Shown: positions 38,511 to 57,513 of the stretch, one piece after another
Position numbering within the stretch: position 1 is the first letter of the stretch
How the letters are laid out: the number at the start of each line of letters is the position of its first letter
DNA from: a virus
Reading direction: 5' to 3' (one strand)
DNA length: 64,000 nucleotides
Virus record (IMG/VR): IMGVR_UViG_3300027739_000009
Location: 7,635-71,634 of that record
Program-made: the position numbers and the translations under genes
The notes under the pieces: generated by a model
Database searches by the model: none
Seen by the model: only the letters and a program-made list of their open reading frames with translations
Told to the model about the DNA's origin: nothing

Positions 38511-41276
38511 TCACTTCGAAATTCCTAACAACTTTGCGAGACGTTTTCCCTCGTCGTTGAGGGTAGCCCCAGCATAAACCCAATGACCATTATACTTGAC
38601 CGGAGCCCCAAACATCTTCTCCATCTCGACCGAAACCTGGCCCTTTTTCTGAACATAATAGCCAGAATCAACGCAGAATCGAGAGAAGACATCCAGGACC
38701 ACAGATCGCTTAACCCTCTCAGCTGGGTCAAACACCATGCACTCCTCAATGAACAACGAAACCGGATCGAAACTCGAAACCCATTTCCCAAAAAGTTCCA
38801 GAGAATGCTGATCATCAATCCCGTTCCTAAAGTAATCAACGATGCCATCGATGGCCCAGGCCAGTACCCCAGGTAACTCCTTGGCAATGATCCTCTCCTC
38901 CAGGTTGTCAATCTTCTCAACGTGGTTTTTTCTGAACTCAATTATGAAGTGACCCACCCGGCGCCGGATCTCTTCCCCGGCCGAGTCCAGAACTGGCCAG
39001 TCATTAATATTGATCACCTGCGCTGCGTTGGGACGAAAATCCACAGCGTCCATATAAAGACGTCTGGCCCTCATCGAGTCACCGCCGGTTGCCATCTTAA
39101 AGCCTTCCGTTGCCTGAGCCTTGCCGCCTTTCTTCATCTCAGGAATGAAATTGACTACAGAGTGAACAAGAGGATGAACTTTAACCATATCACACATATC
39201 CTCGAAGGAAACGGATGAGGTACACCCAGTCGGCAACATCGCAGTCAGGACCTTATTAGTGGTGCCCTTGCCGGTTCCACCCTCGCCCTTGAGGATCATG
39301 GCCATCTGGCCGCCTCGGGTGAGGTACCCACACAGAGCAAGCCCAAACGCCTGCTGAAAAGCCCTGACATTGACCACGTTGGCCAGAACCTTGTCCCAAT
39401 ATGGGGTTGCCAAACTCCAGTCAGGGTTGAACTTCAATTTGAATCTGCAGCCAAGGTCCAGGCAATACTGGGTCCAGGAAGCGCCGACGCCCTCTCCGTG
39501 AGTGCTGCCGACTGAGCCAACGCAGTCCTGGCCGACCTGGAGAAAACTCGAAGAGCAGGGGATACCGTAGATCATTGGCCATTCCTCCACATAGGCGGAC
39601 TCCTTGGCCATGACCAGCTTGTGGATGGCTGTGTAATCTCCACCCCGTTTGCAAACCAGACAGTGAGAAAATCTGATCGAGACTTTCTCTCGGATCACAT
39701 CATCACGGACCTGATTCCAAATATGGTTCGGACCAGCCACGTAAAAGAAGGAGCCATACGATCGACACTGGCCAAGGTGACGAACCATGTCAGTTGCTAT
39801 TTCACCCTGAGTCGCATCCTTGAGAAGGGCACATGGGTCTTTCTCCCCATCCTCTTCCGCATCTGCCTGGCGGATGGCTGCGTCATTCAGGGCTGAAGAT
39901 ATTTTCACATCGGCCTTCAAATCGGTGGCGGTGGAGCCGACCTTCTTGGCTGCGATCTTGGTCAGGCGGCTGAGTTGGGATGTGGTCATGGTGGACTGAG
40001 ACGCAAACGAGCCCCAGCACTCCAGGACTTCATCGACTGAGGCCTCGTCCAGCCATCTCTCAAGGCCTTCATAACTGAAGCGGAGTTGATAGTACAGGCC
40101 GCCATGGGCGAAGGATTTCAGGCGGACTGAGTCTGCGTCGGCCATGATCATTGCCTTGTTGGTGCCGGACTTGGGACTGATCGGGTCTTGGAAGCCCTTG
40201 GCAGTTTTCTCGTCGCGGTAGCTGTCCCGGTCGACCAGGATATCATAGACTGAGACCTGGCTGCCGTTTGATCGGGTCAGGAAATCGTCGGAAGTGATAA
40301 TGTGATCTGATACCAGGAGGGTGGCGGCGTGGCCTGCCTTCTTGTGGTCGATGCCGGTGGCGGCGAGACGCAGGGTCTCTCGTTCCTCAGCTGCAATCTT
40401 GGCAGAGACATAGTCTGGGGATCGGAAGATTTCCTGCTTATACGCCTGCCATTTGGAATTGTAAGAGAAGGTTTCGTCCTTGAGGATGGCTATGGCGGAG
40501 TCACAGTCGATGACCGAGCCGTCAATGAACTGGCACTCTCTCTCGACCAGCTCTACAAGTTCGGTGTGGCCGGTTACCTCAGGGTTAGCTTCGAAGATCA
40601 ATCGGCTGGCGGTTTTGACACTTTCGTCAATGATACTACGGGCTTCGACGGTGGCTGCCTTGGTGATGATGTGGGAAGACCAGGAGTTGAGCCAGGCAAA
40701 TTTGAAGATCTGTTCAAGAAGTTCGGCCCGCATGTTGCGGACTGGGACATAGATGTGGAGTCCAGTTCCGGTTCGGCCGGAGACCTTGACCCTGGCAGAT
40801 GGTGAGGCCTTTCTGAACTGCATGATCTTCTTGGAGCCGTTGGAGATGAAGGAGTTCTCCAGTCTGTTTTCGAGCAGGCTTATGAATTTGTCGACCTGGC
40901 CGGCGTCATAGTCTCCATCGATATCAAGGAGCATGAGCGAGATAGAATCGTTGTTTGCATATCTAAAAAATTTGGATGATCGGGAGACAACGCCATTCTC
41001 TGGGTCTTCCTTCCCAGCCAACGTGATGTCGTACTCCAGAAAATCATCGCCTGCTGGCCAGATGGCCGGGACGATACAGGTTGCTGGGCGGTAGCTTAAG
41101 TCCGTGAGATACTGAGCAAAATCCTCAGGGGACATCTCGACAGTGGACGCAATTCCTTGGGAGATGGTGGCCTGGCTGGACTTCTTCAAACTGCCATCAG
41201 GTTGGATTTCGATTTTCTTGAAAATTGCCTTGTTCTTGTCGCAGAGCTCACTAAACGTCAACATTATCTCGGACAT
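38511..41276 (-). CDS. Primase-helicase (N-terminal AEP/PrimPol-like domain, D5_N plus SF3 helicase, P4-family)
   Basis: LLDIDGD and TGLHIY primase motifs; GEGGTGKGT Walker A; MATGGDSMRARRLY; ININDWP; RRVGHFIIEF; C-terminal winged helix. Confidence 0.85.
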   Translation of the reverse strand: MSEIMLTFSELCDKNKAIFKKIEIQPDGSLKKSSQATISQGIASTVEMSPEDFAQYLTDLSYRPATCIVPAIWPAGDDFLEYDITLAGKEDPENGVVSRSSKFFRYANNDSISLMLLDIDGDYDAGQVDKFISLLENRLENSFISNGSKKIMQFRKASPSARVKVSGRTGTGLHIYVPVRNMRAELLEQIFKFAWLNSWSSHIITKAATVEARSIIDESVKTASRLIFEANPEVTGHTELVELVERECQFIDGSVIDCDSAIAILKDETFSYNSKWQAYKQEIFRSPDYVSAKIAAEERETLRLAATGIDHKKAGHAATLLVSDHIITSDDFLTRSNGSQVSVYDILVDRDSYRDEKTAKGFQDPISPKSGTNKAMIMADADSVRLKSFAHGGLYYQLRFSYEGLERWLDEASVDEVLECWGSFASQSTMTTSQLSRLTKIAAKKVGSTATDLKADVKISSALNDAAIRQADAEEDGEKDPCALLKDATQGEIATDMVRHLGQCRSYGSFFYVAGPNHIWNQVRDDVIREKVSIRFSHCLVCKRGGDYTAIHKLVMAKESAYVEEWPMIYGIPCSSSFLQVGQDCVGSVGSTHGEGVGASWTQYCLDLGCRFKLKFNPDWSLATPYWDKVLANVVNVRAFQQAFGLALCGYLTRGGQMAMILKGEGGTGKGTTNKVLTAMLPTGCTSSVSFEDMCDMVKVHPLVHSVVNFIPEMKKGGKAQATEGFKMATGGDSMRARRLYMDAVDFRPNAAQVININDWPVLDSAGEEIRRRVGHFIIEFRKNHVEKIDNLEERIIAKELPGVLAWAIDGIVDYFRNGIDDQHSLELFGKWVSSFDPVSLFIEECMVFDPAERVKRSVVLDVFSRFCVDSGYYVQKKGQVSVEMEKMFGAPVKYNGHWVYAGATLNDEGKRLAKLLGISK

Positions 41277-41277
41277 A

Positions 41278-41475
41278 TTAACCTCTCGGGGTTGAAATAA
41301 GATCTTGGTACTTCACCTTACCCCGAGTCTTTTGAACGATGGTCATCGCATTCTGTAGTGTGATCTCTCCTCGTTCTTGGCATATATTGTATAACACGCC
41401 TCGTTTGAGGCCAATTTTTGCTGCCAGGTCGTCATAAGTTAAGCTGTTGTTCTTACGATATTCTTCTAACTTCAT
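41278..41475 (-). CDS. Cro-like HTH protein
   Basis: MKLEEYRKNNSLTYDDLAAKIGLKRGVLYNIC...GKVKYQDL. Confidence 0.8.
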   Translation of the reverse strand: MKLEEYRKNNSLTYDDLAAKIGLKRGVLYNICQERGEITLQNAMTIVQKTRGKVKYQDLISTPRG

Positions 41476-41528
41476 TCCCGTCCCCCTGTTTAATATTTAC
41501 AATAATGAAAAAGTCCTTGTAGAGGTTC

Positions 41529-41557
41529 ATGATAGATGGTAACCTGTTCAAAGTCAA
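41529..41557 (-). promoter_or_regulatory. Sigma70-type promoter for cro-like/primase operon
   Basis: TTGACT-N17-TATCAT on the minus strand. Confidence 0.65.
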
Positions 41558-41591
41558 GTACAACATTCATTATTCTGAACAGAGGTTGATT

Positions 41592-42506
41592 ATGAAGATA
41601 TGCACAAGGTGTGGTGAAGAGAAGCCTATATCAGAGTTTAGACCAGGCAGCCGTAGATGCCGGTTGTGTCTTAATGAATTAACCGCTGAATACAGAGCAA
41701 ATAACCCGGAAAAGGTAAAAGCCTCCCAGAACAAGTACAGAAAAACAGAAAAATCAAAAGCAACCCAGCAGCGCTTTCTGAATAAGAACCCTAACTACGG
41801 AGCTAAAGCTCAGAGGAAACATCTGGCTAAAATGTCAGAAGAGCAAAGGGAGGAGGTTAAGAAACGGGACCGCGAGTATAAACGGAAAATCCAAGCTGAA
41901 ACCAAAGCTAAATTCGACGCATTGCCGGAAGAAGAGAAAAAGATCAAGCGAGAACAACGCCAGGAGTGGGTACGAAAATATAAGAATAAGAATAAGGAAA
42001 CAGAAGCAATAGCTAATGGCCTTGTTCCGTCCAGATCCAAATATCTTCTAGGACTGCTACCTGTGGACGCCACCGCAATCATGACTGAGAGCGGAATTGA
42101 GTGTGAGTGTAAGTTTTGCAAGAAAAGATTTCTACCCACACGCAGAGACATTACGCTCAGAACAAAAGTATTTAGAGGTGTAGCTGGTAGTCTTGGTAGT
42201 GAATACCACCTCTACTGCTCAGAAACCTGCAAGGAAGCCTGCCCAATATTCAAGCAAAGGACCAGAAGAAAAGACCAAATCCCAGCCTCAGCTCGTGCCA
42301 GATCCTGCCAGAACGACGTTCTCAAGCAACTTCAATGTGACGAATTTGGTTATAATTTTTGTGAAAAGTGTGGAGATATAATCGATGTGGAACTCCATCA
42401 CACTCTGCCTATTGCGGAATTTGAAGACGAGGCCATATCCTCTGCCAGTCATATTCTGATGTGCGTCAAGTGCCATACCGCCAAGCACTCGGAGTGCAAA
42501 AATTAA
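41592..42506 (+). CDS. HNH homing-type endonuclease, paralogue of 25523-26404
   Basis: N-terminal KICTRCGEEKPISEF...CRLC; C-terminal HLYCSETC...QLQCDEFGYNFCEKCGDIIDVELHHTLP...CVKCH; AGAGG RBS. Confidence 0.8.
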   Translation: MKICTRCGEEKPISEFRPGSRRCRLCLNELTAEYRANNPEKVKASQNKYRKTEKSKATQQRFLNKNPNYGAKAQRKHLAKMSEEQREEVKKRDREYKRKIQAETKAKFDALPEEEKKIKREQRQEWVRKYKNKNKETEAIANGLVPSRSKYLLGLLPVDATAIMTESGIECECKFCKKRFLPTRRDITLRTKVFRGVAGSLGSEYHLYCSETCKEACPIFKQRTRRKDQIPASARARSCQNDVLKQLQCDEFGYNFCEKCGDIIDVELHHTLPIAEFEDEAISSASHILMCVKCHTAKHSECKN

Positions 42507-42521
42507 AAACCGGTTATCAAA

Positions 42522-42575
42522 ATGAAAATTGAAACAGTGAAGGTACAAACCTTATTTGAAATGGAGAACTCATGA
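42522..42575 (+). pseudogene. 17-aa remnant of an array-family gene (MKIETVKVQTLFEMENS)
   Basis: Family-type N-terminus (MK[VI]ET) fused directly to the family C-terminal QTLFEM motif. Confidence 0.5.
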
Positions 42576-42886
42576 GCGCAGCCAGCCAACTTATAAAAAG
42601 AGACATGAAGAAGACCCTAAAGAAGCTGGATCTTCTTATGGAACAACTCCAGGATGAGTATTTCACCGCGATTCAGGAACGGGTGAACAAGCATAATGTG
42701 GTGTTGGCCACCGGTCACATGAGCAACACATGGCTGATCAGCAAGGTCGGCAAGCATGACTTCAAAGACGATATCGATTGCAAACACAGAATCTTCAAAG
42801 AACTGAAAATCCTGGATGAAATGGTAGAGCCTTACGGGCTCGGGCCTTCAAACATGATGCGGTTTGATCCTCCTGGAGTGGATTGA
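42572..42886 (+). CDS. Hypothetical protein
   Basis: GGAGA RBS; lacks the array motif. Confidence 0.6.
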   Translation: MSAASQLIKRDMKKTLKKLDLLMEQLQDEYFTAIQERVNKHNVVLATGHMSNTWLISKVGKHDFKDDIDCKHRIFKELKILDEMVEPYGLGPSNMMRFDPPGVD

Positions 42887-42887
42887 A

Positions 42888-43229
42888 ATGAAAGTTGAAA
42901 CCATTACCAGAGATACGTTTACAACATCCGGTATGATGCTTTTTAGGCCCCACAGCGGCGGGCAAGTAGTATTCAAAATCCCGTATGTAAAGGCTTGGGA
43001 GTATGCATCAGGGGACTTATGTAAAGAGGTCTATGAGTATTTCAGGGTGGAGTTCGGATCGCTGGCCTGTTACATCACCATCAGTGAGTATCTGCCCAAG
43101 GTAATTTGGTGGAAAAATGACTACTCAGAGCTGACTGATCTGTATTGCCATCCTGAATCCTGGAAGCAATTCCTGATGGAACATCCAGATCTATTATCAG
43201 CTCAAACCTTATTCGAGATGCAAAAATGA
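42888..43229 (+). CDS. Array family member 1
   Basis: C-terminus HPESWKQFLMEHPDLLSAQTLFEMQK. Confidence 0.8.
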   Translation: MKVETITRDTFTTSGMMLFRPHSGGQVVFKIPYVKAWEYASGDLCKEVYEYFRVEFGSLACYITISEYLPKVIWWKNDYSELTDLYCHPESWKQFLMEHPDLLSAQTLFEMQK

Positions 43230-43618
43230 AAATATCAATCAATCCGTATGACCATATCCTGGTCAGAAGAAACAACCACCACAAAAGTCCATTCGAAAAA
43301 GGAAAGTTTGTCTTATTCACAGAGGATGAAGATTTCATAATAACAAGGACTGAAAACTGGTTCCTACGGTCTAGGGCAAGAGCATGCCCAGAAGTGATTC
43401 ATGCACTGGAGGAGAAGTTCGGCGCAGGTGTGGTTTTATTTATAGTTGACGACGCACCAGTATGGAAGTGGCTGGATCATGTCCAGTATGAGGACGAGGA
43501 ACAGGGAGGGGAGGGCATGTTCTCGTCCGTGTACATTCACCCCGAAACCTGGAAGCGGTTCTTGACTGAAAACCCAGATCTATTATCAGCTCAAACCTTA
43601 TTCGAGATGCAAAAATGA
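43226..43618 (+). CDS. Array family member 2
   Basis: C-terminus HPETWKRFLTENPDLLSAQTLFEMQK. Confidence 0.8.
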   Translation: MKISINPYDHILVRRNNHHKSPFEKGKFVLFTEDEDFIITRTENWFLRSRARACPEVIHALEEKFGAGVVLFIVDDAPVWKWLDHVQYEDEEQGGEGMFSSVYIHPETWKRFLTENPDLLSAQTLFEMQK

Positions 43619-43953
43619 AAGTTGAAACATTAAATCTTGTGATTGTGAATGGATATGAGACGAGGCTTGTGAGGGAGTCAGAGAGAGAAATGGTACTGGA
43701 GGGTAGAATATTCTTCCAGTCGATTTTCACAGGACATATCTGTCTGGAGGTTGATTCCTACATCAGGAAAAAACTGGACCATCTACTCAACAAGAAGCAC
43801 CCTCGAATCTATTTTCATAACGATCTGCCGGTAGGGGTGTGCTTCATTGACGCCCCAAATATGTACATGCACCTGGAGTCCTGGAAGCAGTTCTTGATGG
43901 AACATCCGGATCTTCTTTCCGCTCAAACTCTACTCGAGATGCAACGTGGCTAG
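43615..43953 (+). CDS. Array family member 3
   Basis: C-terminus HLESWKQFLMEHPDLLSAQTLLEMQRG. Confidence 0.8.
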   Translation: MKVETLNLVIVNGYETRLVRESEREMVLEGRIFFQSIFTGHICLEVDSYIRKKLDHLLNKKHPRIYFHNDLPVGVCFIDAPNMYMHLESWKQFLMEHPDLLSAQTLLEMQRG

Positions 43954-44200
43954 AGAACTGTCCAGACCTGGAGATTACACAATACAGATCGGTCTCCAGT
44001 TGAAGAGGAAGCTGTGGAAGTTGTTTCCAAACCTGGCCACAGTGATGCTGCAGCCTAAAGCAATAATCCAGCCAGATGGGGTGGTGCCATTCACCTTTGG
44101 AGGTAGGGCTTATATTCCAGAGTCAAAATACAGACAGATGCTCGAAAACTGCCCAGAGATAATGTCAGAGCAGATGTTTTTGGAGATGCTTAATGACTGA
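43946..44200 (+). CDS. Array family member 4
   Basis: C-terminus IPESKYRQMLENCPEIMSEQMFLEM. Confidence 0.75.
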   Translation: MARELSRPGDYTIQIGLQLKRKLWKLFPNLATVMLQPKAIIQPDGVVPFTFGGRAYIPESKYRQMLENCPEIMSEQMFLEMLND

Positions 44201-44465
44201 TTGGAGATGGTCGATGCCCAGTAATGACTACAAAATAATTCTCGGTGAACACCTGAAAGAACGCTTTATCAGGAAGTTCTACCCGGCCATAACCCAATCG
44301 AGGATCTGGCCAAGGGCAGTAATCCAACCAGACGGCAAGGCCACATTTCTCCTTGCCTCGGTGCTTTACATTCCAGAGTCAAAGTACAAATGGATGCTGG
44401 AGAATTTCCCAGAAATAAAATCAGAGCAAATGTACCTGGAGATGCACGATGGAGAACTATTATGA
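44193..44465 (+). CDS. Array family member 5
   Basis: C-terminus IPESKYKWMLENFPEIKSEQMYLEM; close paralogue of member 4. Confidence 0.75.
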   Translation: MTDWRWSMPSNDYKIILGEHLKERFIRKFYPAITQSRIWPRAVIQPDGKATFLLASVLYIPESKYKWMLENFPEIKSEQMYLEMHDGELL

Positions 44466-44691
44466 AGTAGCCTGTGGGCCGGCCCTGGCCAAGTGGATCG
44501 ATGAGGAGATTCCGAGTTCACCGATTGCTCCTGTGATCGAGCAAGTGACGGTATTCGTGACATACAAAAATCAGGAGATCCGTAGATTTCAAAGTGAGTG
44601 CTGGATGTCTGAGCGGACATACCTAAGGCTCTTGGAGGAGTATCCAATTATAAAGTCTGAGCAGATGTACCTGGCTATGACGGAGGAATAA
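44449..44691 (+). CDS. Array family member 6
   Basis: C-terminus LLEEYPIIKSEQMYLAM. Confidence 0.75.
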   Translation: MENYYEVACGPALAKWIDEEIPSSPIAPVIEQVTVFVTYKNQEIRRFQSECWMSERTYLRLLEEYPIIKSEQMYLAMTEE

Positions 44692-44693
44692 AT

Positions 44694-44966
44694 ATGCTTG
44701 ATTATATGGACGAGTCAGCGAGTGAGACTCTCAGCCCAACAATACACAGGCTTCTCGCGGAAGAGCTCCTGGCCAGGTACAAAGTAGGGTGCCACGACTC
44801 GTGGAATTGGACTGTCAACATGATCTTTATCTACAACCGGGTAATTGCAACAGCGTATGGTCCGGTGACCGCCCACATCTCCATAGCAACTCTGGCTGAG
44901 ATTTTCAAACTGAATCCAAAAATCGAGGAAGAATATATCCTGGCTCAAATGCTGGAGGGATCATGA
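44694..44966 (+). CDS. Array family member 7
   Basis: C-terminus LNPKIEEEYILAQMLEG. Confidence 0.7.
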   Translation: MLDYMDESASETLSPTIHRLLAEELLARYKVGCHDSWNWTVNMIFIYNRVIATAYGPVTAHISIATLAEIFKLNPKIEEEYILAQMLEGS

Positions 44967-45196
44967 CAACTTTATCAGTGTGCCCTGAGCTGGCTAAATA
45001 TCTGGAAGACAAGAGGAAGGAGAAAGGGGTTACGTCAGTAGGAAGTTACTGGGGGATACGAGAGGTGATTGTCCAGGCAAATAGTTTCCACGCGATAGAC
45101 ACCAAATTCTTCATCTCCGATGACAAGCTCAAGGAGATTCTCGACTCAAATCCAAAACTGAAGAGTGCTCAGGTGCTCTGGGAGATGATGAAATGA
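44963..45196 (+). CDS. Array family member 8
   Basis: N-terminal VCPELAKYL; C-terminus SNPKLKSAQVLWEM. Confidence 0.8.
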   Translation: MTTLSVCPELAKYLEDKRKEKGVTSVGSYWGIREVIVQANSFHAIDTKFFISDDKLKEILDSNPKLKSAQVLWEMMK

Positions 45197-45417
45197 CAAT
45201 AGAGCGTGGTGGGATCGGGCAGAAGGGCGGCCCGGGTGAGGAATGTGCGAGGATGGCATGTCGGAGCCGGCCGGCGATCGGGTACAACAGATCAACTGGC
45301 TGGTGGTACTGTGACGAGTGCTCCCACATGCTGAACGAGATCCATAAGGATGAGGCTGAAAAACTCTTTGGAGGGCCGCTGGTAATCATCCCGGCCATAA
45401 AGGCAGATGAGTGCTAG
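45193..45417 (+). CDS. Small Cys/His Zn-finger protein inserted in the array (not a family member)
   Basis: CARMAC...WYCDECSH. Confidence 0.6.
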   Translation: MTIERGGIGQKGGPGEECARMACRSRPAIGYNRSTGWWYCDECSHMLNEIHKDEAEKLFGGPLVIIPAIKADEC

Positions 45418-45643
45418 AATAGTTAAGTGTGGAGAGAAACTCAACGCATGGTTCAAACTGAGGCTGCCTCATCTTGGTAAGGATCTGAAGGCCAAGGAGG
45501 TGTTCCTCGAGGATGGCGCAGAAACTGCTCCTCTGTTTGGCCTTGGGGGTGATATTTTCATGACTGAGGCCAGGTACCTGGCCCTGTTGGAAGATCGTCC
45601 GGACATAAAATCTGAACAGATGTACCTGGAGATGAAGGAATGA
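45407..45643 (+). CDS. Array family member 9
   Basis: C-terminus LLEDRPDIKSEQMYLEM. Confidence 0.75.
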   Translation: MSARIVKCGEKLNAWFKLRLPHLGKDLKAKEVFLEDGAETAPLFGLGGDIFMTEARYLALLEDRPDIKSEQMYLEMKE

Positions 45644-45936
45644 CAGTAGACGAGCTGGATAAGCTACCCAATCTGAGAAATGCGCTGATCTCTCGGTTAC
45701 CAAGTGCAACCCACCCGAAGCTGGCTAATCTGTGTTTCCAGAGATTTCAAGCATGGCAGGCAGCGCAGGAAAGGCGCCTTGTAGAGGAAATACTGGTGTG
45801 GGATGATGCACAAACTGCAGACACTTATGGTCCAGTCTACGCCTACCTAACCGTGAGTACCTTCAAAATAATCCTGGAAACCAGGCCAGACATCAGGGAA
45901 GAGTATATCCTCAACCAAATGCTGGAGGGAAAATGA
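45640..45936 (+). CDS. Array family member 10
   Basis: C-terminus TRPDIREEYILNQMLEG; pairs with member 7. Confidence 0.7.
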   Translation: MTVDELDKLPNLRNALISRLPSATHPKLANLCFQRFQAWQAAQERRLVEEILVWDDAQTADTYGPVYAYLTVSTFKIILETRPDIREEYILNQMLEGK

Positions 45937-46262
45937 TACCTGTAAAAGATTTCTGCCCAGAACTGACCCATGCAGTGGAGGACCGGGCCAGATTGATTTC
46001 TGGGAAAACCCACACTTACTGGCACATGGAGATGATGGTGAATGTGGAGGAAGCCGGGGCCGTAGAGGTGAAGTTCAGGATGGGTCCAGAAAGGGAGCTT
46101 AATTTCAAAAATATCTGGCAGATAGAGAGCACTCCAACTTGGGACTCTATGATTAAGCCAACAAAATACGTCAGAGTTGTGGTCCCGTGGAGGGTCGTAG
46201 AGGATCTTCTGCTTAACCCTGAAATCAGATCCGCCCAGGTTCTGTGGATGATGTCGAGATGA
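45933..46262 (+). CDS. Array family member 11
   Basis: FCPELT N-terminus; LNPEIRSAQVLWMM C-terminus. Confidence 0.75.
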   Translation: MIPVKDFCPELTHAVEDRARLISGKTHTYWHMEMMVNVEEAGAVEVKFRMGPERELNFKNIWQIESTPTWDSMIKPTKYVRVVVPWRVVEDLLLNPEIRSAQVLWMMSR

Positions 46263-46558
46263 AGCTCAATGACTACCTCTGGCTGAACAGCACATTTTGT
46301 CAGGAAGTGATTGATATGTTGGCAGACTATGGCGCCAGGGAAAAATATGGGCTGCCCAAGGCATCAACCAGAATAACCTTGTTTAACGAGGCTACTGATT
46401 TCGGTGAAGGGAAGCTGAAACTGTTTTACGGGGATAGGAGAGTTACAGAAGCCAATGCAAAATATAGGAGCCTTCACCTGACCATGGAGGACATCAACGT
46501 AATGATAAACGACAACGGACTGAGGTCCACCCAGGTCCTGTGGGAGATGCAGAGATGA
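46259..46558 (+). CDS. Array family member 12
   Basis: FCQEV N-terminal part; GLRSTQVLWEM C-terminus. Confidence 0.75.
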   Translation: MKLNDYLWLNSTFCQEVIDMLADYGAREKYGLPKASTRITLFNEATDFGEGKLKLFYGDRRVTEANAKYRSLHLTMEDINVMINDNGLRSTQVLWEMQR

Positions 46559-46809
46559 CTGTTACTACACCCACCAACCTTGTTGGAGTATGTACAGAAG
46601 TAGGTACAGCTCTCAAGAACAGGGATGGATTCACTATCGATGACGTGATCAAATCAACTGGTCGGTGGATAACTGTTGTCTGGAGTCCTGCTGGAGAAAC
46701 CTTAAGAAGTAGCTCCATCTACATCCCAGAGTCACTATTAAAAAGGCTACTGGATGAAAATCAAACCTTGAGGAGTGCGCAGATATTATGGGAGATGACA
46801 GAGAAATAA
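46555..46809 (+). CDS. Array family member 13
   Basis: C-terminus IPESLLKRLLDENQTLRSAQILWEM. Confidence 0.75.
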   Translation: MTVTTPTNLVGVCTEVGTALKNRDGFTIDDVIKSTGRWITVVWSPAGETLRSSSIYIPESLLKRLLDENQTLRSAQILWEMTEK

Positions 46810-47030
46810 AACTGAGCCCTGAGCTGGCCAAATACCTGAATAATGAGAAGGCCAAGGAGTTCGGAGTGAAGCCGATCTTTTTCATAAAAAAGCTGATCAT
46901 AACCGACAAGGTATCGACGGTCAGATACAGCGTGGATGTCTGTGAAATGTCCGAGGTCTATTACCGGATGATCCTGGAGTCGGATCCAAAACTCAAATCG
47001 GCTCAGGTTCTCATCGATATGGAGGGGTGA
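46788..47030 (+). CDS. Array family member 14 (start uncertain)
   Basis: LSPELAKYL; SDPKLKSAQVLIDM. Confidence 0.7.
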   Translation: MGDDREIKLSPELAKYLNNEKAKEFGVKPIFFIKKLIITDKVSTVRYSVDVCEMSEVYYRMILESDPKLKSAQVLIDMEG

Positions 47031-47031
47031 G

Positions 47032-47361
47032 ATGGACTCTCAGGAATATCTGGAATCCCTATATGATTCTCCAGTGGTTCTTTTCTCCTATTACCCTGGC
47101 CCGAAGATGCTGGCCTATGCTGAGAAGGCCAACGTGAGGTTTTACAACTCGCCAGTAATTAAGGTATTCGTGTGGAGTGGGGACTTAGAGCCAGCCGAAG
47201 GAAGACAGATGAACATCCACATCTCGAAGCGGGAGTGGGAAGAGATCCTGGACTCTAATCCTGAAATCAAATCAGAATATATGCTGATGGAGATGATAGA
47301 TGCGTACCGTAGTCCCACTGAGCCCAGAGCTGGCTGTCTATCTAACCCAGGAGAGGTATAG
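47032..47361 (+). CDS. Array family member 15
   Basis: SNPEIKSEYMLMEM, then a 19-aa extension overlapping the next gene. Confidence 0.7.
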   Translation: MDSQEYLESLYDSPVVLFSYYPGPKMLAYAEKANVRFYNSPVIKVFVWSGDLEPAEGRQMNIHISKREWEEILDSNPEIKSEYMLMEMIDAYRSPTEPRAGCLSNPGEV

Positions 47362-47539
47362 GGCCACCAAAACCTACATGATGTTTCACAAATTGATACT
47401 GGACGATGACGAAGATGTATCTGGCTCAACAGTACGTACCTGCCGGATGACTCCAACCAGGTACCGAAAGATCCTTGACGACCATTATGAGATAAAAAGC
47501 GCCCAAACCTTATTGGAGATGCAAGATGAAAGTCTATAG
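47300..47539 (+). CDS. Array family member 16
   Basis: LSPELAVYL; YEIKSAQTLLEM. Confidence 0.75.
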   Translation: MRTVVPLSPELAVYLTQERYRATKTYMMFHKLILDDDEDVSGSTVRTCRMTPTRYRKILDDHYEIKSAQTLLEMQDESL

Positions 47540-47795
47540 CAACCTGTTCGAGCACGAGTTCCTGAATGCATGCCATGAGCTCAAGGTAAAGATCTCTGAG
47601 CTTAAGGACGAGCTTGAGGTCAGGCTCCCAGAGAATGTGTATGTGGATCACAGGGACAACTCAGAGAGGAAGAATCATATTGGTTACCTGGCTGGACAAG
47701 CGTTTATATCAGCCAGCTTTCTGAAAAAGATCTACGAGGACAACCCAGATATCCTTTCCGCTCAAATAGTATGGGAGATGCAAGATGAAAGTTGA
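47526..47795 (+). CDS. Array family member 17
   Basis: C-terminus DNPDILSAQIVWEM. Confidence 0.75.
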   Translation: MKVYSNLFEHEFLNACHELKVKISELKDELEVRLPENVYVDHRDNSERKNHIGYLAGQAFISASFLKKIYEDNPDILSAQIVWEMQDES

Positions 47796-48030
47796 GGAAA
47801 TCAGCAACGATCTGAGATGGGCCATAGTGAGTTATGGCAGGAGGTGTTTGGGCCTGATGGGGAATGGACCTCTTCAATCTTTCGTGCCTGATGATATGGG
47901 AGGTGTCATGGTGAGTGTGAACAGGGTGCAACAGTATTATGTCTCAGAATCTGAGATAAAGCACCTTCTGGATACCAGGCCAAAGCTCCAGGCTGCCCAG
48001 GTCTTGCACTCTTTCATGGAGGAGGACTGA
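47785..48030 (+). CDS. Array family member 18
   Basis: C-terminus TRPKLQAAQVLHSFM. Confidence 0.7.
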   Translation: MKVEEISNDLRWAIVSYGRRCLGLMGNGPLQSFVPDDMGGVMVSVNRVQQYYVSESEIKHLLDTRPKLQAAQVLHSFMEED

Positions 48031-48032
48031 TC

Positions 48033-48314
48033 ATGATGTACTGTCCTGAGGTGCTGGATTGGCTGCAAAGAGAGGCCCTGATGACGAATGAGTCCAGGAA
48101 GGAGGTTCCGTGGTTTCCGGCCGGTGCTGTGGCTCATATAGACAGAATTGCTTTCTTGTTCGCCTACATGGGGGCTTCACTGGAGATTCAGCTCACCTAC
48201 AAGAAAATTACAGAGCTGATCGCATCTGACAGGGAGATGCTGAACAAGCAGCTGATCTGGGAAATGACCGATAGGGCCGGAAACGATTTCAACGAAATGA
48301 TGGTGGCGCCATGA
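48033..48314 (+). CDS. Array family member 19
   Basis: YCPEVL; MLNKQLIWEM. Confidence 0.7.
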   Translation: MMYCPEVLDWLQREALMTNESRKEVPWFPAGAVAHIDRIAFLFAYMGASLEIQLTYKKITELIASDREMLNKQLIWEMTDRAGNDFNEMMVAP

Positions 48315-48592
48315 GGTACTGTCCGGATGTTATTGGTCTTCTCAGAGATGCCTCCTACATGAAAGTGGTCAAAGAACATCCAGAGTATGACTGGGTCTAT
48401 ATAGGGGTCACAGAGTTTGAAATTGGGGCGGCGTTCAAATTCATGAACCTGAAGCGTAACCTAACGTCTGGCTACAGGTTTATGAATGAGGAAATTCAGG
48501 AGGAAATACGGAAAGACCCAAAACTGCTGGAAGCACAGATTCTGTGGGAGATGATGGACGATGGCAATAAACGGAGATTATTGGCGCCATGA
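48311..48592 (+). CDS. Array family member 20
   Basis: YCPDV; DPKLLEAQILWEM. Confidence 0.75.
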   Translation: MRYCPDVIGLLRDASYMKVVKEHPEYDWVYIGVTEFEIGAAFKFMNLKRNLTSGYRFMNEEIQEEIRKDPKLLEAQILWEMMDDGNKRRLLAP

Positions 48593-48876
48593 GGTACTGT
48601 CCGGAGGTAATGGAGAGGATCTGGAACCTGGCTATATTGTCTGCCGAGTCCAGTTACGACAAAAAGTACCTGTGGGAACGTCTGGTGTCTACTGACCAGG
48701 ACAACGGAGACACGGTGCTCACCGTCACTGATCTTAAACACAACGTGTCTGCTGACATCCCGGTACCTCAGGACTTTGTCACTAGGGTGTTAAACTCATA
48801 TCCAAAACTGCTTGAAGCACAGATTCTGTGGGAGATGATGGACGATGGCAATAAAAGAAGGTTACTGGTGCCCTGA
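48589..48876 (+). CDS. Array family member 21
   Basis: YCPEV; YPKLLEAQILWEM. Confidence 0.75.
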   Translation: MRYCPEVMERIWNLAILSAESSYDKKYLWERLVSTDQDNGDTVLTVTDLKHNVSADIPVPQDFVTRVLNSYPKLLEAQILWEMMDDGNKRRLLVP

Positions 48877-49114
48877 GATAATGAGCCTGCTCGATAAGGT
48901 TGCCAGGAGAAAGGGTAAGCTACGGAAAGACAGGTATTTCATACTCACCACAGTCACTGTCCCTGGAAAGAGGGTATCCATTATCTACGCCACTACTACC
49001 GACAGATATGTGAATACGATCGATATCCTGGAGTCAACAATCACGGGAGTTCTCGAAAGAGACCCTGGCCTCAGATCAAAACAAGTTCTATGGAGCATGA
49101 CCGATGAAACCTGA
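48845..49114 (+). CDS. Array family member 22
   Basis: WCPEI; DPGLRSKQVLWSM. Confidence 0.7.
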   Translation: MAIKEGYWCPEIMSLLDKVARRKGKLRKDRYFILTTVTVPGKRVSIIYATTTDRYVNTIDILESTITGVLERDPGLRSKQVLWSMTDET

Positions 49115-49343
49115 TTATCGAATAGACTTCGAGTTCAATCTAATTGGGGAGGACACTCCACCGAGAGTGGGGCTGTGTCAGAAATGCAGCTACACATTCA
49201 GGTTCGTCTCTGAATACTATCCATTCTGCCCGCTATGCGGCGTCAGGGTCAAGAGAGTGGGTAGACTTGAACCTGGCATTGCACAGTGTAAACAGTGTGG
49301 AGGTGCTCCATGCTACTGCGATGAAATCAAGAAAAGGAGGTAG
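49104..49343 (+). CDS. Cys-rich Zn-finger protein closing the array
   Basis: CQKC...CPLC...CKQC...CYC. Confidence 0.6.
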   Translation: MKPDYRIDFEFNLIGEDTPPRVGLCQKCSYTFRFVSEYYPFCPLCGVRVKRVGRLEPGIAQCKQCGGAPCYCDEIKKRR

Positions 49344-49361
49344 ACAACCAATGGGCGGATA

Positions 49362-49379
49362 TTAATTACTGGTAATTAA
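49362..49379. promoter_or_regulatory. Operator-like palindrome TTAATTAC-TG-GTAATTAA
   Basis: Same motif as the 36.1-36.6 kb sites. Confidence 0.7.
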
Positions 49380-49459
49380 AATTTGATCTTGTGCTCCTGC
49401 TTCAAACCAAACCATTTTCGCAGCAAAGAAGAGATTGTTAGTTTCCTATCAAATCGAAT

Positions 49460-49606
49460 GGAGGACGATATGACCCAGGCCTGAAAACAGGCGCCTAGAA
49501 GATCCGGCCATCTGTCGGCTGGATCTTCACTCGTGGCCCGCTTCCGAAGAAAGTGGGCCTCGTAGTTGTGCTGAGCTCGTCGGGAGCCGGCGAAATTACG
49601 AGGAGG
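49460..49606 (+). ncRNA. Structured RNA leader: 4-codon uORF plus four stacked hairpins
   Basis: Stems at 49479-92, 49498-528, 49535-59 and 49559-602, several with G-U pairs; the last overlaps the GAGGAGG RBS. Confidence 0.55.
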
Positions 49607-49613
49607 ATAGAAT

Positions 49614-50423
49614 ATGACAGAGGAACCGATCGATGTAGTTGAGACTTTGATACTTACCCTGCTCGACGCAGACAGGGCTAAGACTCAAGAAAACCTTAGG
49701 TTTGATAACGGCAGGAGAGGCGGTGGCCCAAGAAGGATGGAAGACCAGGGAAAGTTTCTCCACTTTGAGAGGATGTATCCGGAGTCGATGTTCACTTATG
49801 AGTTGGGAGAAGACGGGCCAGGTAGATTGTTTGCTACAAACCACGAATATCTTCTCTACCACCCGAAAGAGGTTTATAAAGACCAGGCTGAAATCTGTGT
49901 TTTTATAGGACCTGAAAATGTAGTTAAATGGTTCGGTGTCAGAAAGTTAAATCGTGCACCAAAGGGGGCTGTACCACTGGGAAAAGTTGATGCCTGGTAT
50001 GAGTCTCATACTGAAGTATTTAGTGCCGACCTACGCCCTATTTACCAGAAGAGGCTACTTGCTTTTGATGCGCTGGGAAGGGAGGTCCTTGTAAAAATGC
50101 GTGGGCAAATAGTAGCCCATGCAGACGGATTTGGTACTCTCTTCGCGTCCATAATTGAGGACGCTATAAGAAAAGATGTCATGCTTGCCTCTTTGTCAGA
50201 TGGGCTTGAGGTAAAATTCCCAGTACCTTTGGACTCATACAAAGAGCTGTTCATAATTCGTGATGGCCCACTTACCCAGGCCCAGAAGAAGAGGGCTATT
50301 GTCCATTGGGTCAGAAAGCATAAAAGAGTAACTGATACCTCAACCACTGAGGTTAAAAAACACACCAGAGGAGTTGAGGAGTTCTCCATAGGGACATTCA
50401 AGGTAAAGCTGACTCCAAATTAA
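49614..50423 (+). CDS. Hypothetical protein with C-terminal HWVRKH motif
   Basis: 269-aa ORF, strong RBS. Confidence 0.65.
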   Translation: MTEEPIDVVETLILTLLDADRAKTQENLRFDNGRRGGGPRRMEDQGKFLHFERMYPESMFTYELGEDGPGRLFATNHEYLLYHPKEVYKDQAEICVFIGPENVVKWFGVRKLNRAPKGAVPLGKVDAWYESHTEVFSADLRPIYQKRLLAFDALGREVLVKMRGQIVAHADGFGTLFASIIEDAIRKDVMLASLSDGLEVKFPVPLDSYKELFIIRDGPLTQAQKKRAIVHWVRKHKRVTDTSTTEVKKHTRGVEEFSIGTFKVKLTPN

Positions 50424-50436
50424 GAAAGGTGAAGAC

Positions 50437-50646
50437 ATGATATTGAAAGTAAACGGAAAGCCGGCCAAAGTGGGCCAGATGGTGACCACCCACGACGGGA
50501 CGACGGGGATTCTCCACCGGTGGAGGGAGCCGAGGAATGACCCGGGCCGGGTGTATATTGTGACAGTGAGAGGAATGTTGGATTTCTATCCATCAGTGAT
50601 CGGAGCAAAATTCGAAGAGGTGAAACCATGCAGAAGACGACAGTAA
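50437..50646 (+). CDS. Small beta-barrel (SH3/KOW-like) hypothetical protein
   Basis: KVGQMVTTHDG...GRVYIV; AGGTGA RBS. Confidence 0.55.
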   Translation: MILKVNGKPAKVGQMVTTHDGTTGILHRWREPRNDPGRVYIVTVRGMLDFYPSVIGAKFEEVKPCRRRQ

Positions 50647-51044
50647 CGAAACTCGAACCGACAAACGGAATTGACACAGTTTCCAAGGATTTCTTGAAAA
50701 AACTGAAAGACACTTACGGGCTGAACGGAGTTGTGGTAGCGGAGAGTGAGCCGGTGCCTCTTCAGGACGTTGAGGGGGTAGGCTGCAATGTCCTGGCCGT
50801 CATCCACGGTACCAAACCAGGGGGAGAAGTCCACATCCCTGAATCGGCAGTGTTCTTCATCGCCTCCTTGGCCGTGTACTGCTCAAGCCACGACAAGCCT
50901 TTCAACATGCAGGGGTTTCTGGCTTGCCTGTCGGAGAGGTTCCCGGACGACTTCAGAGCGTTTGTCACAGCTGAGGTGACCAGGACCATACAGAACATCA
51001 ACGCAGCCAGGATACTCGCAACATCACAAGGTAGGGAACACTGA
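50628..51044 (+). CDS. Hypothetical protein
   Basis: GAGGTGA RBS, operon context. Confidence 0.6.
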   Translation: MQKTTVTKLEPTNGIDTVSKDFLKKLKDTYGLNGVVVAESEPVPLQDVEGVGCNVLAVIHGTKPGGEVHIPESAVFFIASLAVYCSSHDKPFNMQGFLACLSERFPDDFRAFVTAEVTRTIQNINAARILATSQGREH

Positions 51045-51054
51045 GAGGTGCGGT

Positions 51055-51321
51055 ATGTCCGGAAAACTTAAAGTAATAACTACCCATAGTGTCTCGATTG
51101 AGTGGAACACCGGGTTCGAATACGGCACCAAGGAGTATGATATGATCACGGAAAGAGTCGTCGGTTTCTCCAAAAGGTTATCGTATGGTGGTGATCTTGA
51201 ATTCAGTATTTCCTCCTATGACGACTGGATGTCTGTATCCGGAGAGGACCTCAAAGCTGTCTGGAGCGAGGCTTTGAGGATAAGAACAGCAATTCAACTG
51301 ATGGGAGCAAGAATAGTATGA
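51055..51321 (+). CDS. Hypothetical protein
   Basis: GAGAGGTG RBS. Confidence 0.6.
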   Translation: MSGKLKVITTHSVSIEWNTGFEYGTKEYDMITERVVGFSKRLSYGGDLEFSISSYDDWMSVSGEDLKAVWSEALRIRTAIQLMGARIV

Positions 51322-51524
51322 GCAACGAAAGGGTAATGCTGACATATTTGAGGGGCTGCGTGGCTGAGCTGCCCTATACAGAGCAGGGGAAGGTGGCCAA
51401 GGCAGAGGAGAGGTTCTTCGCAGCCATGGATGAGATCTCAAAGGACCTGGGTGAGGAGCCTGCTATTTTAGCCCTGACTATTGTTGGCCTTTCAGTAGCA
51501 ATCGTCAACGGAGAGAAGAAATGA
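51318..51524 (+). CDS. Hypothetical protein
   Basis: ATGA coupling. Confidence 0.55.
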   Translation: MSNERVMLTYLRGCVAELPYTEQGKVAKAEERFFAAMDEISKDLGEEPAILALTIVGLSVAIVNGEKK

Positions 51525-51742
51525 CCGAGAAATCCAAAATCATTGAAAATGCTGAGAAAAACGTCCCATTCATCGGCCAGAGCTTTATTGAGGAAGTTAC
51601 CTGGCTCTGCAACTCCGGGGCCGTCGGGGAAGATACTCCCCAGTCAGCAATATTTGTGGTGGCCCTGGAGAACATCGCCGCCGGGATCAGAAGCAGGGAC
51701 CAGACTGCTTCCAAAGAAATCACCAACCTGAGGAAATTCTGA
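51521..51742 (+). CDS. Hypothetical protein
   Basis: ATGA coupling. Confidence 0.55.
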   Translation: MTEKSKIIENAEKNVPFIGQSFIEEVTWLCNSGAVGEDTPQSAIFVVALENIAAGIRSRDQTASKEITNLRKF

Positions 51743-52242: not shown

Positions 52243-52330
52243 TGGATCTGAAAGAACTGCCAGAGGGTATAAACCCTGACGATGCGGTTGCAACCTGTTG
52301 CACACACAAAACCTTCTCAGGAGACTAATT

Positions 52331-53447: not shown

Positions 53448-53463
53448 AAAGTAAGACCAAAAG

Positions 53464-53925: not shown

Positions 53926-53938
53926 TTACCTTCATACG

Positions 53939-57495: not shown

Positions 57496-57513
57496 ACCAA
57501 ACGGAGACACATT

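What the first reader, a model, noticed from the sequence alone, without database searches (positions are those of the whole stretch)
42888..49114. Tandem array of 22 small paralogues with variable cores and a constant C-terminal helix
Seen directly: 22 of 23 consecutive 77-130 aa ORFs over about 6.2 kb end in the same motif, [YF]-[IM]-[PS]-E...[LI]-L-x-x-[NDR]-P-x-[LI]-[KRL]-S-[AE]-Q-x-L-[WFY]-E-M. Many also start with [CS]-P-E-[LV]-A, while the middle 40-80 aa differ strongly. Genes overlap (ATGA or a few nt), which implies translational coupling. I recognise no named family. Inference: a diversifying repertoire built as constant docking element plus variable binding module. It could be an anti-defence or host-takeover arsenal, or a set of adaptors binding one common partner through the C-terminal helix. 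This is the best candidate for an undescribed system in the window.
Basis: partly seen in the sequence, partly recalled or inferred. Interest (0 to 1): 0.9.

Follow-up and report, generated by a model that had tools for sequence, protein, structure and literature searches.

The report
Orphan 22-gene small-protein array in phage
A freshwater tailed phage devotes 6.2 kb of one tightly packed operon to 22 old, diverged copies of a small protein that resembles no known family or fold. The copies are probably a panel of binders aimed at host proteins, but the function is untested.

Summary
Twenty-two of 23 consecutive plus-strand genes (42888-49114) belong to one family: each matches the family profile at E 1e-13 to 1e-23, and nothing else in the 73-kb phage record does. 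The genes overlap or sit 1-13 nt apart, so they form one operon.

The shared part is more than a C-terminal helix. A 12-residue N-terminal helix and a 26-residue, almost indel-free C-terminal helix-turn-helix frame a variable middle of 26-63 residues.

Synonymous sites between copies are saturated. The C-terminus is under purifying selection, with dN/dS of 0.12-0.35 in closer paralogue pairs and 0.10 between alleles. Only the last 2-3 conserved codons double as the next gene's ribosome-binding site.

Pfam, PHROGs, NCBIfam, PDB sequences and five fold libraries gave no match. A profile search of 1.84 billion proteins found one other lineage, in an ENA metagenome, with at least three members and the same overlap design.

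Contigs from three JGI metagenomes and a Logan run are nearly clonal. The exception is a 124-nt recombinant tract in the variable insert of gene 12.

My best reading is an early-operon repertoire of scaffold-plus-variable-insert binders against host targets (about 0.4). The "docking helix" idea is not supported.

This scan has reported similar arrays of other families in other phages.

The parts
41278..41475 (-). 65-aa Cro/CI-type HTH regulator. It diverges from the operon that holds the array.
   Evidence: Pfam HTH_3, E 3.7e-6. Also called as a gene in L003.
41529..42506 (+). First gene of the rightward operon: a 325-aa HNH-type endonuclease-like protein.
   Evidence: PHROG endonuclease / HNH families, E 3.6e-6. 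An HNH motif is visible at the C-terminus.
42522..42575 (+). 17-codon mini-ORF, a collapsed family member. It has a family-type start (MKIETV) joined to a family-type end (QTLFEM). Its GGAG and an ATGA overlap feed the next gene.
   Evidence: Sequence and stop-to-stop ORF. DNA repeat family D7. SD at -9 of the next start.
42572..42886 (+). 104-aa non-member ORF between the mini-ORF and gene 1.
   Evidence: No Pfam or PHROG hit. Family profile E 35.
42888..43229 (+). Member g1 (113 aa), clade g1-g3, with a 44-residue N-terminal extension.
   Evidence: Profile E 6e-17; tree; segment lengths.
43226..43618 (+). Member g2 (130 aa). Its last 47 nt are identical to those of g1.
   Evidence: Profile E 2.5e-22; repeat D2; unitig depth doubled on the 47-mer.
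43615..43953 (+). Member g3 (112 aa).
   Evidence: Profile E 2.7e-20.
43946..44200 (+). Member g4 (84 aa, GTG start).
   Evidence: Profile E 1e-18. A variant with two compensating indels occurs in L003.
44214..44465 (+). Member g5 (83 aa; alternative start at 44193).
   Evidence: Profile E 1.7e-19; sister to g4.
44449..44691 (+). Member g6 (80 aa).
   Evidence: Profile E 7e-21.
44694..44966 (+). Member g7 (90 aa), E-E-Y-I-L-x-Q-M subtype.
   Evidence: Profile E 4e-19; sister to g11.
44963..45196 (+). Member g8 (77 aa), the shortest member and the one modelled.
   Evidence: Profile E 1.3e-23. AlphaFold2 pLDDT 74, order beta-alpha-beta-beta-beta-alpha-alpha.
45193..45417 (+). Non-member ORF9 (74 aa, Cys-rich with CxxC, GC 0.57), inserted in the array with overlaps on both sides.
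   Evidence: No profile, Pfam or PHROG match; GC value.
45407..45643 (+). Member g10 (78 aa).
   Evidence: Profile E 3e-18.
45640..45936 (+). Member g11 (98 aa).
   Evidence: Profile E 1.6e-15.
45933..46262 (+). Member g12 (109 aa), with the longest variable middle (63 residues). It carries the only polymorphic tract, 46091-46214.
   Evidence: Profile E 6e-17. Three haplotypes occur in the window, L003 and L002, with dS 0.4-0.5.
46259..46558 (+). Member g13 (99 aa; the ATG start gives an ATGA overlap).
   Evidence: Profile E 1.3e-16; start as in P0019.
46555..46809 (+). Member g14 (84 aa).
   Evidence: Profile E 2.5e-16; start as in P0020.
46788..47030 (+). Member g15 (80 aa).
   Evidence: Profile E 1.6e-21.
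47032..47361 (+). Member g16 (109 aa). Its 21-residue tail overlaps g17 by 62 nt.
   Evidence: Profile E 5.5e-21; overlap.
47300..47539 (+). Member g17 (79 aa).
   Evidence: Profile E 2e-21.
47526..47795 (+). Member g18 (89 aa).
   Evidence: Profile E 5e-20.
47785..48030 (+). Member g19 (81 aa), the most divergent. It ends in ...H-S-F-M.
   Evidence: Profile E 3.7e-13, C-terminal half only.
48033..48314 (+). Member g20 (93 aa), with a 15-residue tail.
   Evidence: Profile E 6.6e-20.
48311..48592 (+). Member g21 (93 aa).
   Evidence: Profile E 2.9e-18; sister to g22.
48589..48876 (+). Member g22 (95 aa).
   Evidence: Profile E 2e-21; 82-nt repeat D6 shared with g21.
48845..49114 (+). Member g23 (89 aa), the last member and the only clearly basic one (pI 9.4).
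   Evidence: Profile E 5.8e-23; pI.
49104..49343 (+). 79-aa Cys-rich (zinc-ribbon-like) ORF that closes the operon.
   Evidence: ORF and overlap. No Pfam or PHROG match.
49363..49378 (.). Palindromic operator-like site TAATTAC-N2-GTAATTA, 20 nt after the operon's last stop. Four more copies lie at 36085-36575.
   Evidence: 5 matches against 0 expected in 100 shuffles.

Best explanation
The array is a lineage-restricted multigene family of small, soluble, mostly acidic cytoplasmic proteins.

Expression. The genes form one tightly packed, probably translationally coupled operon. It begins at the divergent regulatory region next to the primase gene.

Protein design. Each protein has a conserved helical scaffold: a 12-residue N-terminal helix and a 26-residue C-terminal helix-turn-helix. 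Between them lies a variable beta-rich middle of 26-63 residues. Some members add an N-terminal extension or a C-terminal tail.

Origin. The family grew by old tandem and segmental duplications. Short conserved 3' segments still allow gene conversion and unequal crossing-over.

Function (inferred, not shown). Each member probably binds and blocks or redirects a different host protein early in infection, for example defence or other takeover targets. The variable middle would carry the specificity.

Dual coding. The last conserved codons (W/L-E-M, xxG-GAG-ATG) also supply the ribosome-binding site of the next gene.
For: Shown:
- There are 22 profile matches at E 1e-13 to 1e-23, and none elsewhere in the record.
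- No gap exceeds 13 nt over 25 genes and ten junctions are ATGA overlaps. No promoter or terminator excess was found inside the array.
- The segment architecture has an almost indel-free C-terminus and N-terminal helix.
- Synonymous sites are saturated (pS 0.73-0.76), but pN is 0.48 in the C-terminus against 0.64 elsewhere. Five closer paralogue pairs give C-terminal dN/dS of 0.12-0.35; other pairs were higher (up to 0.81) or saturated.
- Between alleles of g12, dN/dS is 0.10 in the conserved C-terminal part and 0.72 in the variable insert.
- AlphaFold2 models give pLDDT 74 for g8. For g2 they give 87-95 for the three conserved helices only.
- All members lack predicted membrane character, and 20 of 22 have pI 4.5-6.7.
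- A second phage lineage (L001, L009) keeps the family, the GGAG-in-W-E-M design and the ATGA overlaps.

Context:
- The array lies in the rightward operon beside the primase and an HTH regulator.
- In the distantly related cultured phage checked, Pseudomonas phage PMBT3 (TerL 24% identical), long runs of small genes on the primase strand consist of unrelated small genes without detectable paralogy.
Against: - No target, timing or phenotype is known, and no RNA data exist.
- The host is unknown.
- No similarity to any known anti-defence or takeover protein was found.
- The models are of moderate confidence and rest on a 24-sequence alignment.
- The contigs from the JGI samples and the Logan run show no copy-number change and almost no variation. 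This argues against rapid ongoing diversification.
Confidence: 0.4

Rival explanations
1. Common-partner adaptors. The conserved C-terminal helix-turn-helix docks every member onto one shared phage or host machine, such as the MoxR AAA+ / DUF2201-VWA pair, a protease or RNA polymerase. The variable middle recruits different substrates.
For: - A few conserved polar positions (Q 19/22, E 15/22, S 16/22) sit in the last helix.
- A MoxR / DUF3150 / DUF2201 module lies 8 kb downstream.
- The 177-aa ORF just upstream of MoxR ends in a faintly similar motif (N-P-K-I-E-S-...-Y-x-K-M; E 0.015 in a search of this genome only).
Against: - Most conserved positions read as helix caps plus one hydrophobic face.
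- AlphaFold2 gives the C-terminal helices and the N-terminal helix its highest confidence, which suggests a packed core.
- The E is partly fixed by its role in the next gene's GGAG site.
- The motif match in the 177-aa ORF is not significant.
Confidence: 0.15
2. Self-assembling set. Members associate with one another through the conserved helices as homo- or hetero-oligomers. They would form a mixed complex, such as a regulatory or structural early-infection assembly, rather than 22 independent binders.
For: - The genes are packed in a way that fits translational coupling of all members, which could favour co-ordinated amounts.
- The conserved helical surfaces are shared by all copies.
Against: - No test was run.
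- The strong divergence of the middles and the variable extensions are not expected for subunits of one assembly.
- The second lineage has interspersed non-members and, as far as its short contigs show, fewer copies.
Confidence: 0.1
3. Largely neutral or selfish expansion. Unequal crossing-over at the conserved 3' ends inflated a family whose single-copy function, whatever it is, does not need 22 versions.
For: - Exact repeats of 47 and 42 nt lie at gene ends.
- A collapsed 17-codon remnant sits at the 5' edge.
- The g6-g7 and g10-g11 pairs look like a two-gene duplication.
Against: - All 22 frames are intact despite saturated synonymous divergence.
- The C-terminus is under purifying selection.
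- Packaging limits make 6.2 kb of a genome of about 73-100 kb costly to carry.
- The family persists in a second lineage.
Confidence: 0.1
4. Nucleic-acid-binding regulators. The N-terminal helix plus the C-terminal helix-turn-helix form a tri-helical HTH-like unit, and the array is a set of DNA- or RNA-binding factors.
For: - The C-terminus has a helix-turn-helix geometry.
- The ESM Atlas's own low-confidence model of g8 lies near HTH_3 clusters at TM 0.45-0.52.
Against: - No HTH profile matches.
- 20 of 22 members are acidic or neutral.
- The Atlas model has pLDDT 0.47.
- The fold search with the better model gave an XRE-family hit at only Z 2.3.
Confidence: 0.05

Closest known systems
Multigene families of large DNA viruses (ASFV MGF110/360/505; poxvirus host-range gene 'accordions'). 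The comparison rests on my own knowledge.
   Same: Both are tandem arrays of diverged paralogues of one small or medium protein in a variable, host-interaction part of a viral genome. Both grow by unequal recombination.
   Different: This is a bacteriophage of about 73-100 kb. The proteins are about 80-130 aa with no sequence or fold relation to those families. All copies sit in one overlapping operon. No copy-number variation was seen among the available contigs.
Tandem small-paralogue arrays reported earlier in this scan. Examples are about 45 and 29 copies in jumbo E. coli phages, 17 in a rumen phage and 11 in a Microcystis phage (AI notes, unchecked).
   Same: They share the overall design: many translationally coupled small paralogues with conserved anchors, variable inserts and no known fold, guessed to be host-interaction repertoires.
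   Different: The family is unrelated: no sequence look-alike was found in the scan's index. The virus is a mid-sized siphovirus-like phage, not a jumbo phage. The Shine-Dalgarno site is embedded in conserved codons.
Segmental amplification of the counter-defence gene tifA in phage T4 under toxIN selection (PMC9391042).
   Same: A phage multiplies a small counter-defence gene in tandem by recombination between short repeats.
   Different: Those copies are recent and identical, and they raise dosage. Here the copies are ancient (dS saturated) and differ in sequence, which implies different specificities rather than dosage.
Tandem immunity-gene arrays of polymorphic toxin systems (PMC3482391).
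   Same: Both are runs of small, diverged, soluble paralogues, each thought to neutralise a different variant of a partner protein.
   Different: There is no adjacent toxin gene, no match to any immunity family in Pfam, and the context is phage rather than bacterial.

Membership tests
Any curated protein family (Pfam, PHROGs, NCBIfam, PDB sequences) | A significant profile match for the members. | tested here: not met
   Pfam best E 0.08. PHROGs none. NCBIfam best E 0.024, one member each. PDB sequence profile best E 0.09.
Any known fold | A structural match of the model above noise. | tested here: not met
   Foldseek PDB best E 2.7. VIA-align wide best Z 3.9. AFDB clusters best E 1.5. BFVD best E 1.4. 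Atlas TM at most 0.53 to parts of much larger proteins. The model pLDDT is only 74, so a known fold is not excluded.
Diversity-generating retroelement (DGR) target | A reverse transcriptase gene and a template repeat matching the variable tract, with changes confined to template adenines. | tested here: not met
   The variable tract of g12 has no second copy in the 73-kb record. No RT-like ORF was noticed among the ORFs I scanned or inspected; I ran no reverse-transcriptase profile over all ORFs. The changes hit all four bases and include synonymous multi-base codon changes.
Viral multigene family / genomic accordion | Tandem paralogues of one family. | tested here: met
   22 members in 6.2 kb. 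Neighbouring members are often closest relatives.
Viral multigene family / genomic accordion | Copy number differs between related strains. | tested here: inconclusive
   Seven contigs from three JGI samples and one Logan run keep the same genes in the same order, but they are nearly clonal. The second lineage is known only from contigs of 860 and 1398 nt.
Anti-CRISPR / anti-defence locus | Homology to a known inhibitor, or an associated aca-type HTH gene in the same operon. | tested here: inconclusive
   PHROGs and Pfam give no homology. An HTH_3 gene lies nearby but is divergently transcribed upstream. No dedicated anti-defence library was available.
Polymorphic-toxin immunity array | An adjacent toxin with a variable C-terminal domain, and membership of an immunity family. 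| tested here: not met
   Neighbours are an HNH-like gene, a 104-aa ORF and Cys-rich ORFs with no toxin domain. There is no immunity-family match.
HTH DNA-binding proteins | An HTH profile match and a basic DNA-binding surface. | tested here: not met
   No HTH profile matches. pI is 4.5-6.7 in 20 of 22 members.

The most novel reading that the evidence does not exclude
The array is a germ-line 'binder library' on a previously unseen small alpha/beta scaffold. A conserved three-helix frame presents a variable beta insert, and each of the 22 versions neutralises a different host defence or takeover target. New specificities are imported by short-tract recombination into the insert, as caught in gene 12. 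This would be a phage counterpart of the multigene immune-evasion families of large eukaryotic viruses, and a new protein fold usable as a binder scaffold.
Probability: 0.25. Interest if true: 0.8.

Novelty: new variant of a known kind. Interest (0 to 1): 0.55.

Why it matters
Tandem families of small early proteins are where phages keep many counter-defence and host-takeover functions, and most such families are unstudied.

This one is unusually large for a mid-sized phage: 22 copies, about 8.5% of the 73-kb record. It has no detectable relative or fold, so it may hold a new scaffold and new inhibitors.

It also shows a clear case of dual coding, in which conserved codons supply the ribosome-binding site of the next gene. 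A population snapshot adds that almost the only variation over about 18 kb is a recombinant tract in one member's variable insert.

The limits are serious. The host is unknown, there is no expression data and no close cultured relative. Similar arrays of other families have already been seen in this scan.

Tried and rejected
- Related sequences in public collections. DNA search of 50,697 phage records with the whole array gave no match. tblastn with g2 gave none.
- Motif scans. IMG/VR and JGI metagenome contigs gave only chance pattern hits.
- Word-indexed protein searches. g8 and the 26-sequence alignment found only the window's own proteins or near-identical copies.
- P0024, a 549-aa repeat protein at E 2.9e-4. 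It matches only 19 profile positions in each of four repeats. I treat it as chance.
- Relatives of the phage. Searches with the 269-aa neighbour and the primase (IMG/VR) and with TerL (bacterial genomes) found none.
- Host clues. No tRNA genes. No Rfam family at 41000-50000.
- DGR hypothesis. Rejected because there is no template repeat and no A-bias, and I noticed no RT-like ORF.
- Second paralogue family at the window end. Profile-profile probability 3.9% over 17 columns, which is not evidence of kinship.
- Complex prediction of g8 with MoxR and the DUF2201-VWA protein. It gave no verdict (score 0.02, partner poorly folded), so it is evidence neither way.
- Reads. Only Logan contigs of one DNA run hold the stretch, and no RNA run does.
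- Literature searches found no description of this family.

Full report
SETTING. The window is bases 7635-71634 of a 73,080-bp IMG/VR virus record rated 74% complete. It was assembled from a freshwater metagenome. It encodes a large terminase, portal, major head protein and a 2007-aa tape measure on the minus strand, so it is a siphovirus-like tailed phage. Its terminase is only 23-28% identical to those of cultured phages of about 82-87 kb that infect Vibrio, Pseudomonas and Acinetobacter. No close relative was found in IMG/VR or in bacterial genomes. No tRNA genes are present, and the host is unknown.

THE OBSERVATION. Between 42888 and 49114 the plus strand carries 23 consecutive small ORFs. 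A profile built from 22 of them matches each at E 1e-13 to 1e-23 and matches nothing else in the whole record. The exception is ORF9 (45193-45417). It is a 74-aa Cys-rich protein with higher G+C (0.57 against 0.44-0.51) and looks like an insertion.

Taken literally, its full form fits none of the 22 and its strict C-terminal part fits two. The best-kept columns are M 21/22, Q 19, P 18, L 17, S 16 and E 15. The N-terminal C-P-E columns are each occupied in 13 of 22 members. In genes 1-3 they lie behind an extension of 42-53 residues.

OPERON ANATOMY. From the 104-aa ORF at 42572 to the Cys-rich ORF ending at 49343 there are 25 genes with no gap above 13 nt. Ten junctions are ATGA overlaps and the rest overlap by 8-62 nt or leave 1-2 nt.

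Eighteen of the 25 starts have an SD-like 4-mer upstream. In about a dozen it is the xxG-GAG of the conserved W/L-E-M codons of the preceding gene. The promoter and terminator scan shows no excess inside the array.

Upstream lie an HNH-like gene (41529-42506) and, divergently, an HTH_3 regulator and the primase. A palindromic site TAATTAC-N2-GTAATTA sits 20 nt after the operon. It has four sister copies at 36085-36575, against none expected by chance.

At the 5' edge a 17-codon ORF (42522-42575) joins a family-type start to a family-type end. It keeps the GGAG and the ATGA overlap for the next gene. It is a collapsed member, possibly kept as a coupling leader.

PROTEIN ARCHITECTURE. An L-INS-i alignment gives these segments:
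- an N-terminal extension of 3-53 residues;
- a helix segment that is 12 residues in 18 of 22 members, and 11, 11, 13 or 5 in the others;
- a variable middle of 26-63 residues;
- a C-terminal segment of 26 residues in 20 members and 25 in two;
- a tail of 2-21 residues.

AlphaFold2 on g8 with a 24-sequence alignment gives pLDDT 74 and pTM 0.58, with the order beta-alpha-beta-beta-beta-alpha-alpha. On g2 only the N-terminal helix (about 87) and the two C-terminal helices (about 95) are confident.

The conserved polar residues sit where helix N-caps are expected (C/S-P-E, N-P-x, S-A-Q). The conserved hydrophobic residues follow an i, i+3, i+4, i+7 spacing. I therefore infer that the constant part is the packed scaffold of the fold rather than a free docking helix. 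This is an inference, because I could not inspect coordinates.

The proteins are soluble and mostly acidic: pI is 4.5-6.7 in 20 of 22.

SELECTION AND AGE. Between paralogues the synonymous sites are saturated everywhere (mean pS 0.76 in the C-terminal 26 codons and 0.73 elsewhere). The nonsynonymous difference is lower in the C-terminus (0.48 against 0.64).

Five closer pairs (g1-g2, g2-g3, g6-g10, g5-g6, g7-g11) give C-terminal dN/dS of 0.12-0.35. Other pairs gave higher values, up to 0.81 for g21-g22, or were saturated. The similarity is therefore protein-level homology under constraint, not a by-product of the ribosome-binding site, which covers only the last 2-3 conserved codons.

Tree branches are long (median 1.5 changes per column). 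The supported clades are g1-g3, g4+g5, g7+g11 and g21+g22. The g6-g7 and g10-g11 pairs suggest a two-gene duplication.

Exact repeats of 47 nt (ends of g1 and g2) and 42 nt (g21 and g22) show recent gene conversion or offer substrates for unequal crossing-over.

POPULATION DATA. Seven contigs from three JGI samples and one Logan run cover 40780-59114. Outside g4, g12 and g13 they carry one substitution in each of two contigs (L004 and L006).

The main exception is a tract at 46091-46214 inside the long insert of g12, plus two substitutions in g13. It occurs as three nested haplotypes. L003 also carries two compensating indels in g4.

The g12 tract differs at dS 0.4-0.5 and includes multi-base synonymous codon changes, so it is an imported diverged allele, not hypermutation. 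Its dN/dS is 0.72 in the insert (codons 53-77) and 0.10 in the conserved C-terminal part (codons 78-94). The counts are small.

The tract has no template copy in the record, and I noticed no reverse-transcriptase-like ORF, so a DGR is excluded. JGI contigs break at exactly this place, as expected for a strain bubble. No copy-number variant was seen.

DISTRIBUTION. An exhaustive profile search of 1.84 billion representative proteins returned four kinds of hit:
- the window's own members;
- two near-identical variants;
- one real distant homologue, P0023 (124 aa);
- a repeat protein that I regard as chance.

P0023 and its 56%-identical relative P0026 lie on two short contigs of one ENA metagenome. 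Contig L009 carries three members, one interspersed non-member and a small hydrophobic ORF, with ATGA or similar overlaps. L001 ends with the same GGAG-in-W-E-M codons followed by an ATGA overlap into a further gene. P0023 nests inside the family tree. The family and its design therefore exist in at least two phage lineages, but they are very rare in public data.

COMPARISON WITH WHAT IS KNOWN. No Pfam, PHROG, NCBIfam or PDB-sequence match exists. No fold match rises above noise in PDB (Foldseek and VIA-align), AFDB clusters, BFVD or the ESM Atlas. The language-model neighbours of g8 are unnamed and below the chance level stated by the tool.

The nearest known kinds are viral multigene families and phage small-paralogue arrays. 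This scan has already reported several of the latter, from other families. In the distantly related cultured phage checked, PMBT3, the long runs of small genes on the primase strand consist of unrelated small genes without detectable paralogy. A recent tandem amplification of a counter-defence gene is documented for T4 (PMC9391042), but those copies are identical.

MECHANISM AND VERDICT. Shown:
- a real, ancient, constrained 22-member family in one overlapping operon;
- a constant-scaffold, variable-insert design;
- dual use of the conserved codons as ribosome-binding sites.

Inferred (about 0.4): an early-expressed repertoire of independent binders or inhibitors of host proteins. The rivals are common-partner adaptors (0.15), a self-assembling set (0.1), a largely neutral expansion (0.1) and nucleic-acid binders (0.05).

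One complex prediction of g8 with the MoxR and DUF2201-VWA proteins gave no verdict and counts neither way.

The finding is a genuine orphan family and a good candidate for structural and functional work. Function and host are unknown, and the general phenomenon is no longer unprecedented.

Noticed in passing
window 62824-64000, continuing to L010:459-2090 (record 70458-72092): A second tandem family of four acidic proteins of 128-143 aa that end in ...Y-x-E/Q-M-R-G. The genes are separated by 1 nt. Profile-profile comparison with the main family gives only 3.9% probability over 17 columns.
   Followed up: partly
window 46091-46214 (gene 12), with 46297 and 46301 (gene 13): Apart from two compensating indels in g4 and single substitutions in two contigs, this is the only polymorphism over about 18 kb of otherwise identical contigs. 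It is a nested recombinant tract with dS 0.4-0.5 in the variable insert of one member. JGI contigs also break here.
   Followed up: yes
window 44133 and 44152 (gene 4), seen in L003: One JGI contig has a 1-nt insertion and a 1-nt deletion 19 nt apart. They re-read six codons of the conserved helix of gene 4 in another frame (protein P0021). It may be a real variant or an assembly error.
   Followed up: no
window 45193-45417 and 49104-49343: Two small Cys-rich (CxxC pairs, zinc-finger or zinc-ribbon-like) ORFs. One is embedded in the array with overlaps on both sides and higher G+C. The other closes the operon. Neither has a Pfam or PHROG match.
   Followed up: partly
window 36085-36575 and 49363-49378: Five copies of the palindrome TAATTAC-N2/3-GTAATTA (none expected by chance). 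Four are clustered upstream of the primase region and one lies directly after the array operon.
   Followed up: partly
window 56962-57495: A 177-aa ORF just upstream of the MoxR ATPase ends in a motif faintly like the family's C-terminus (N-P-K-I-E-S-R-L-V-Y-Q-K-M). E is 0.015 in a search of this genome only, which is not significant.
   Followed up: partly
window 55285-55872 and 57514-61235: An Nmad5 domain protein (a nucleotide-modification-associated domain, E 5e-25). Downstream lies a MoxR AAA+ / weak DUF3150 / DUF2201_N metallopeptidase-like plus VWA-like module.
   Followed up: partly
L009:1-1398 and L001:1-860 (ENA ERZ925105): A second phage lineage carries the family. L009 has three members, an 83-aa non-member and a 49-aa hydrophobic ORF. 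L001 and L009 share a conserved upstream gene, but their first members are only 56% identical.
   Followed up: partly
window 44889-44920: A 234-nt, low-depth (3.2x) contig of the source run matches only 32 nt at the end of gene 7 and then diverges. It may be a trace of a related strain or phage with a different neighbouring gene.
   Followed up: no
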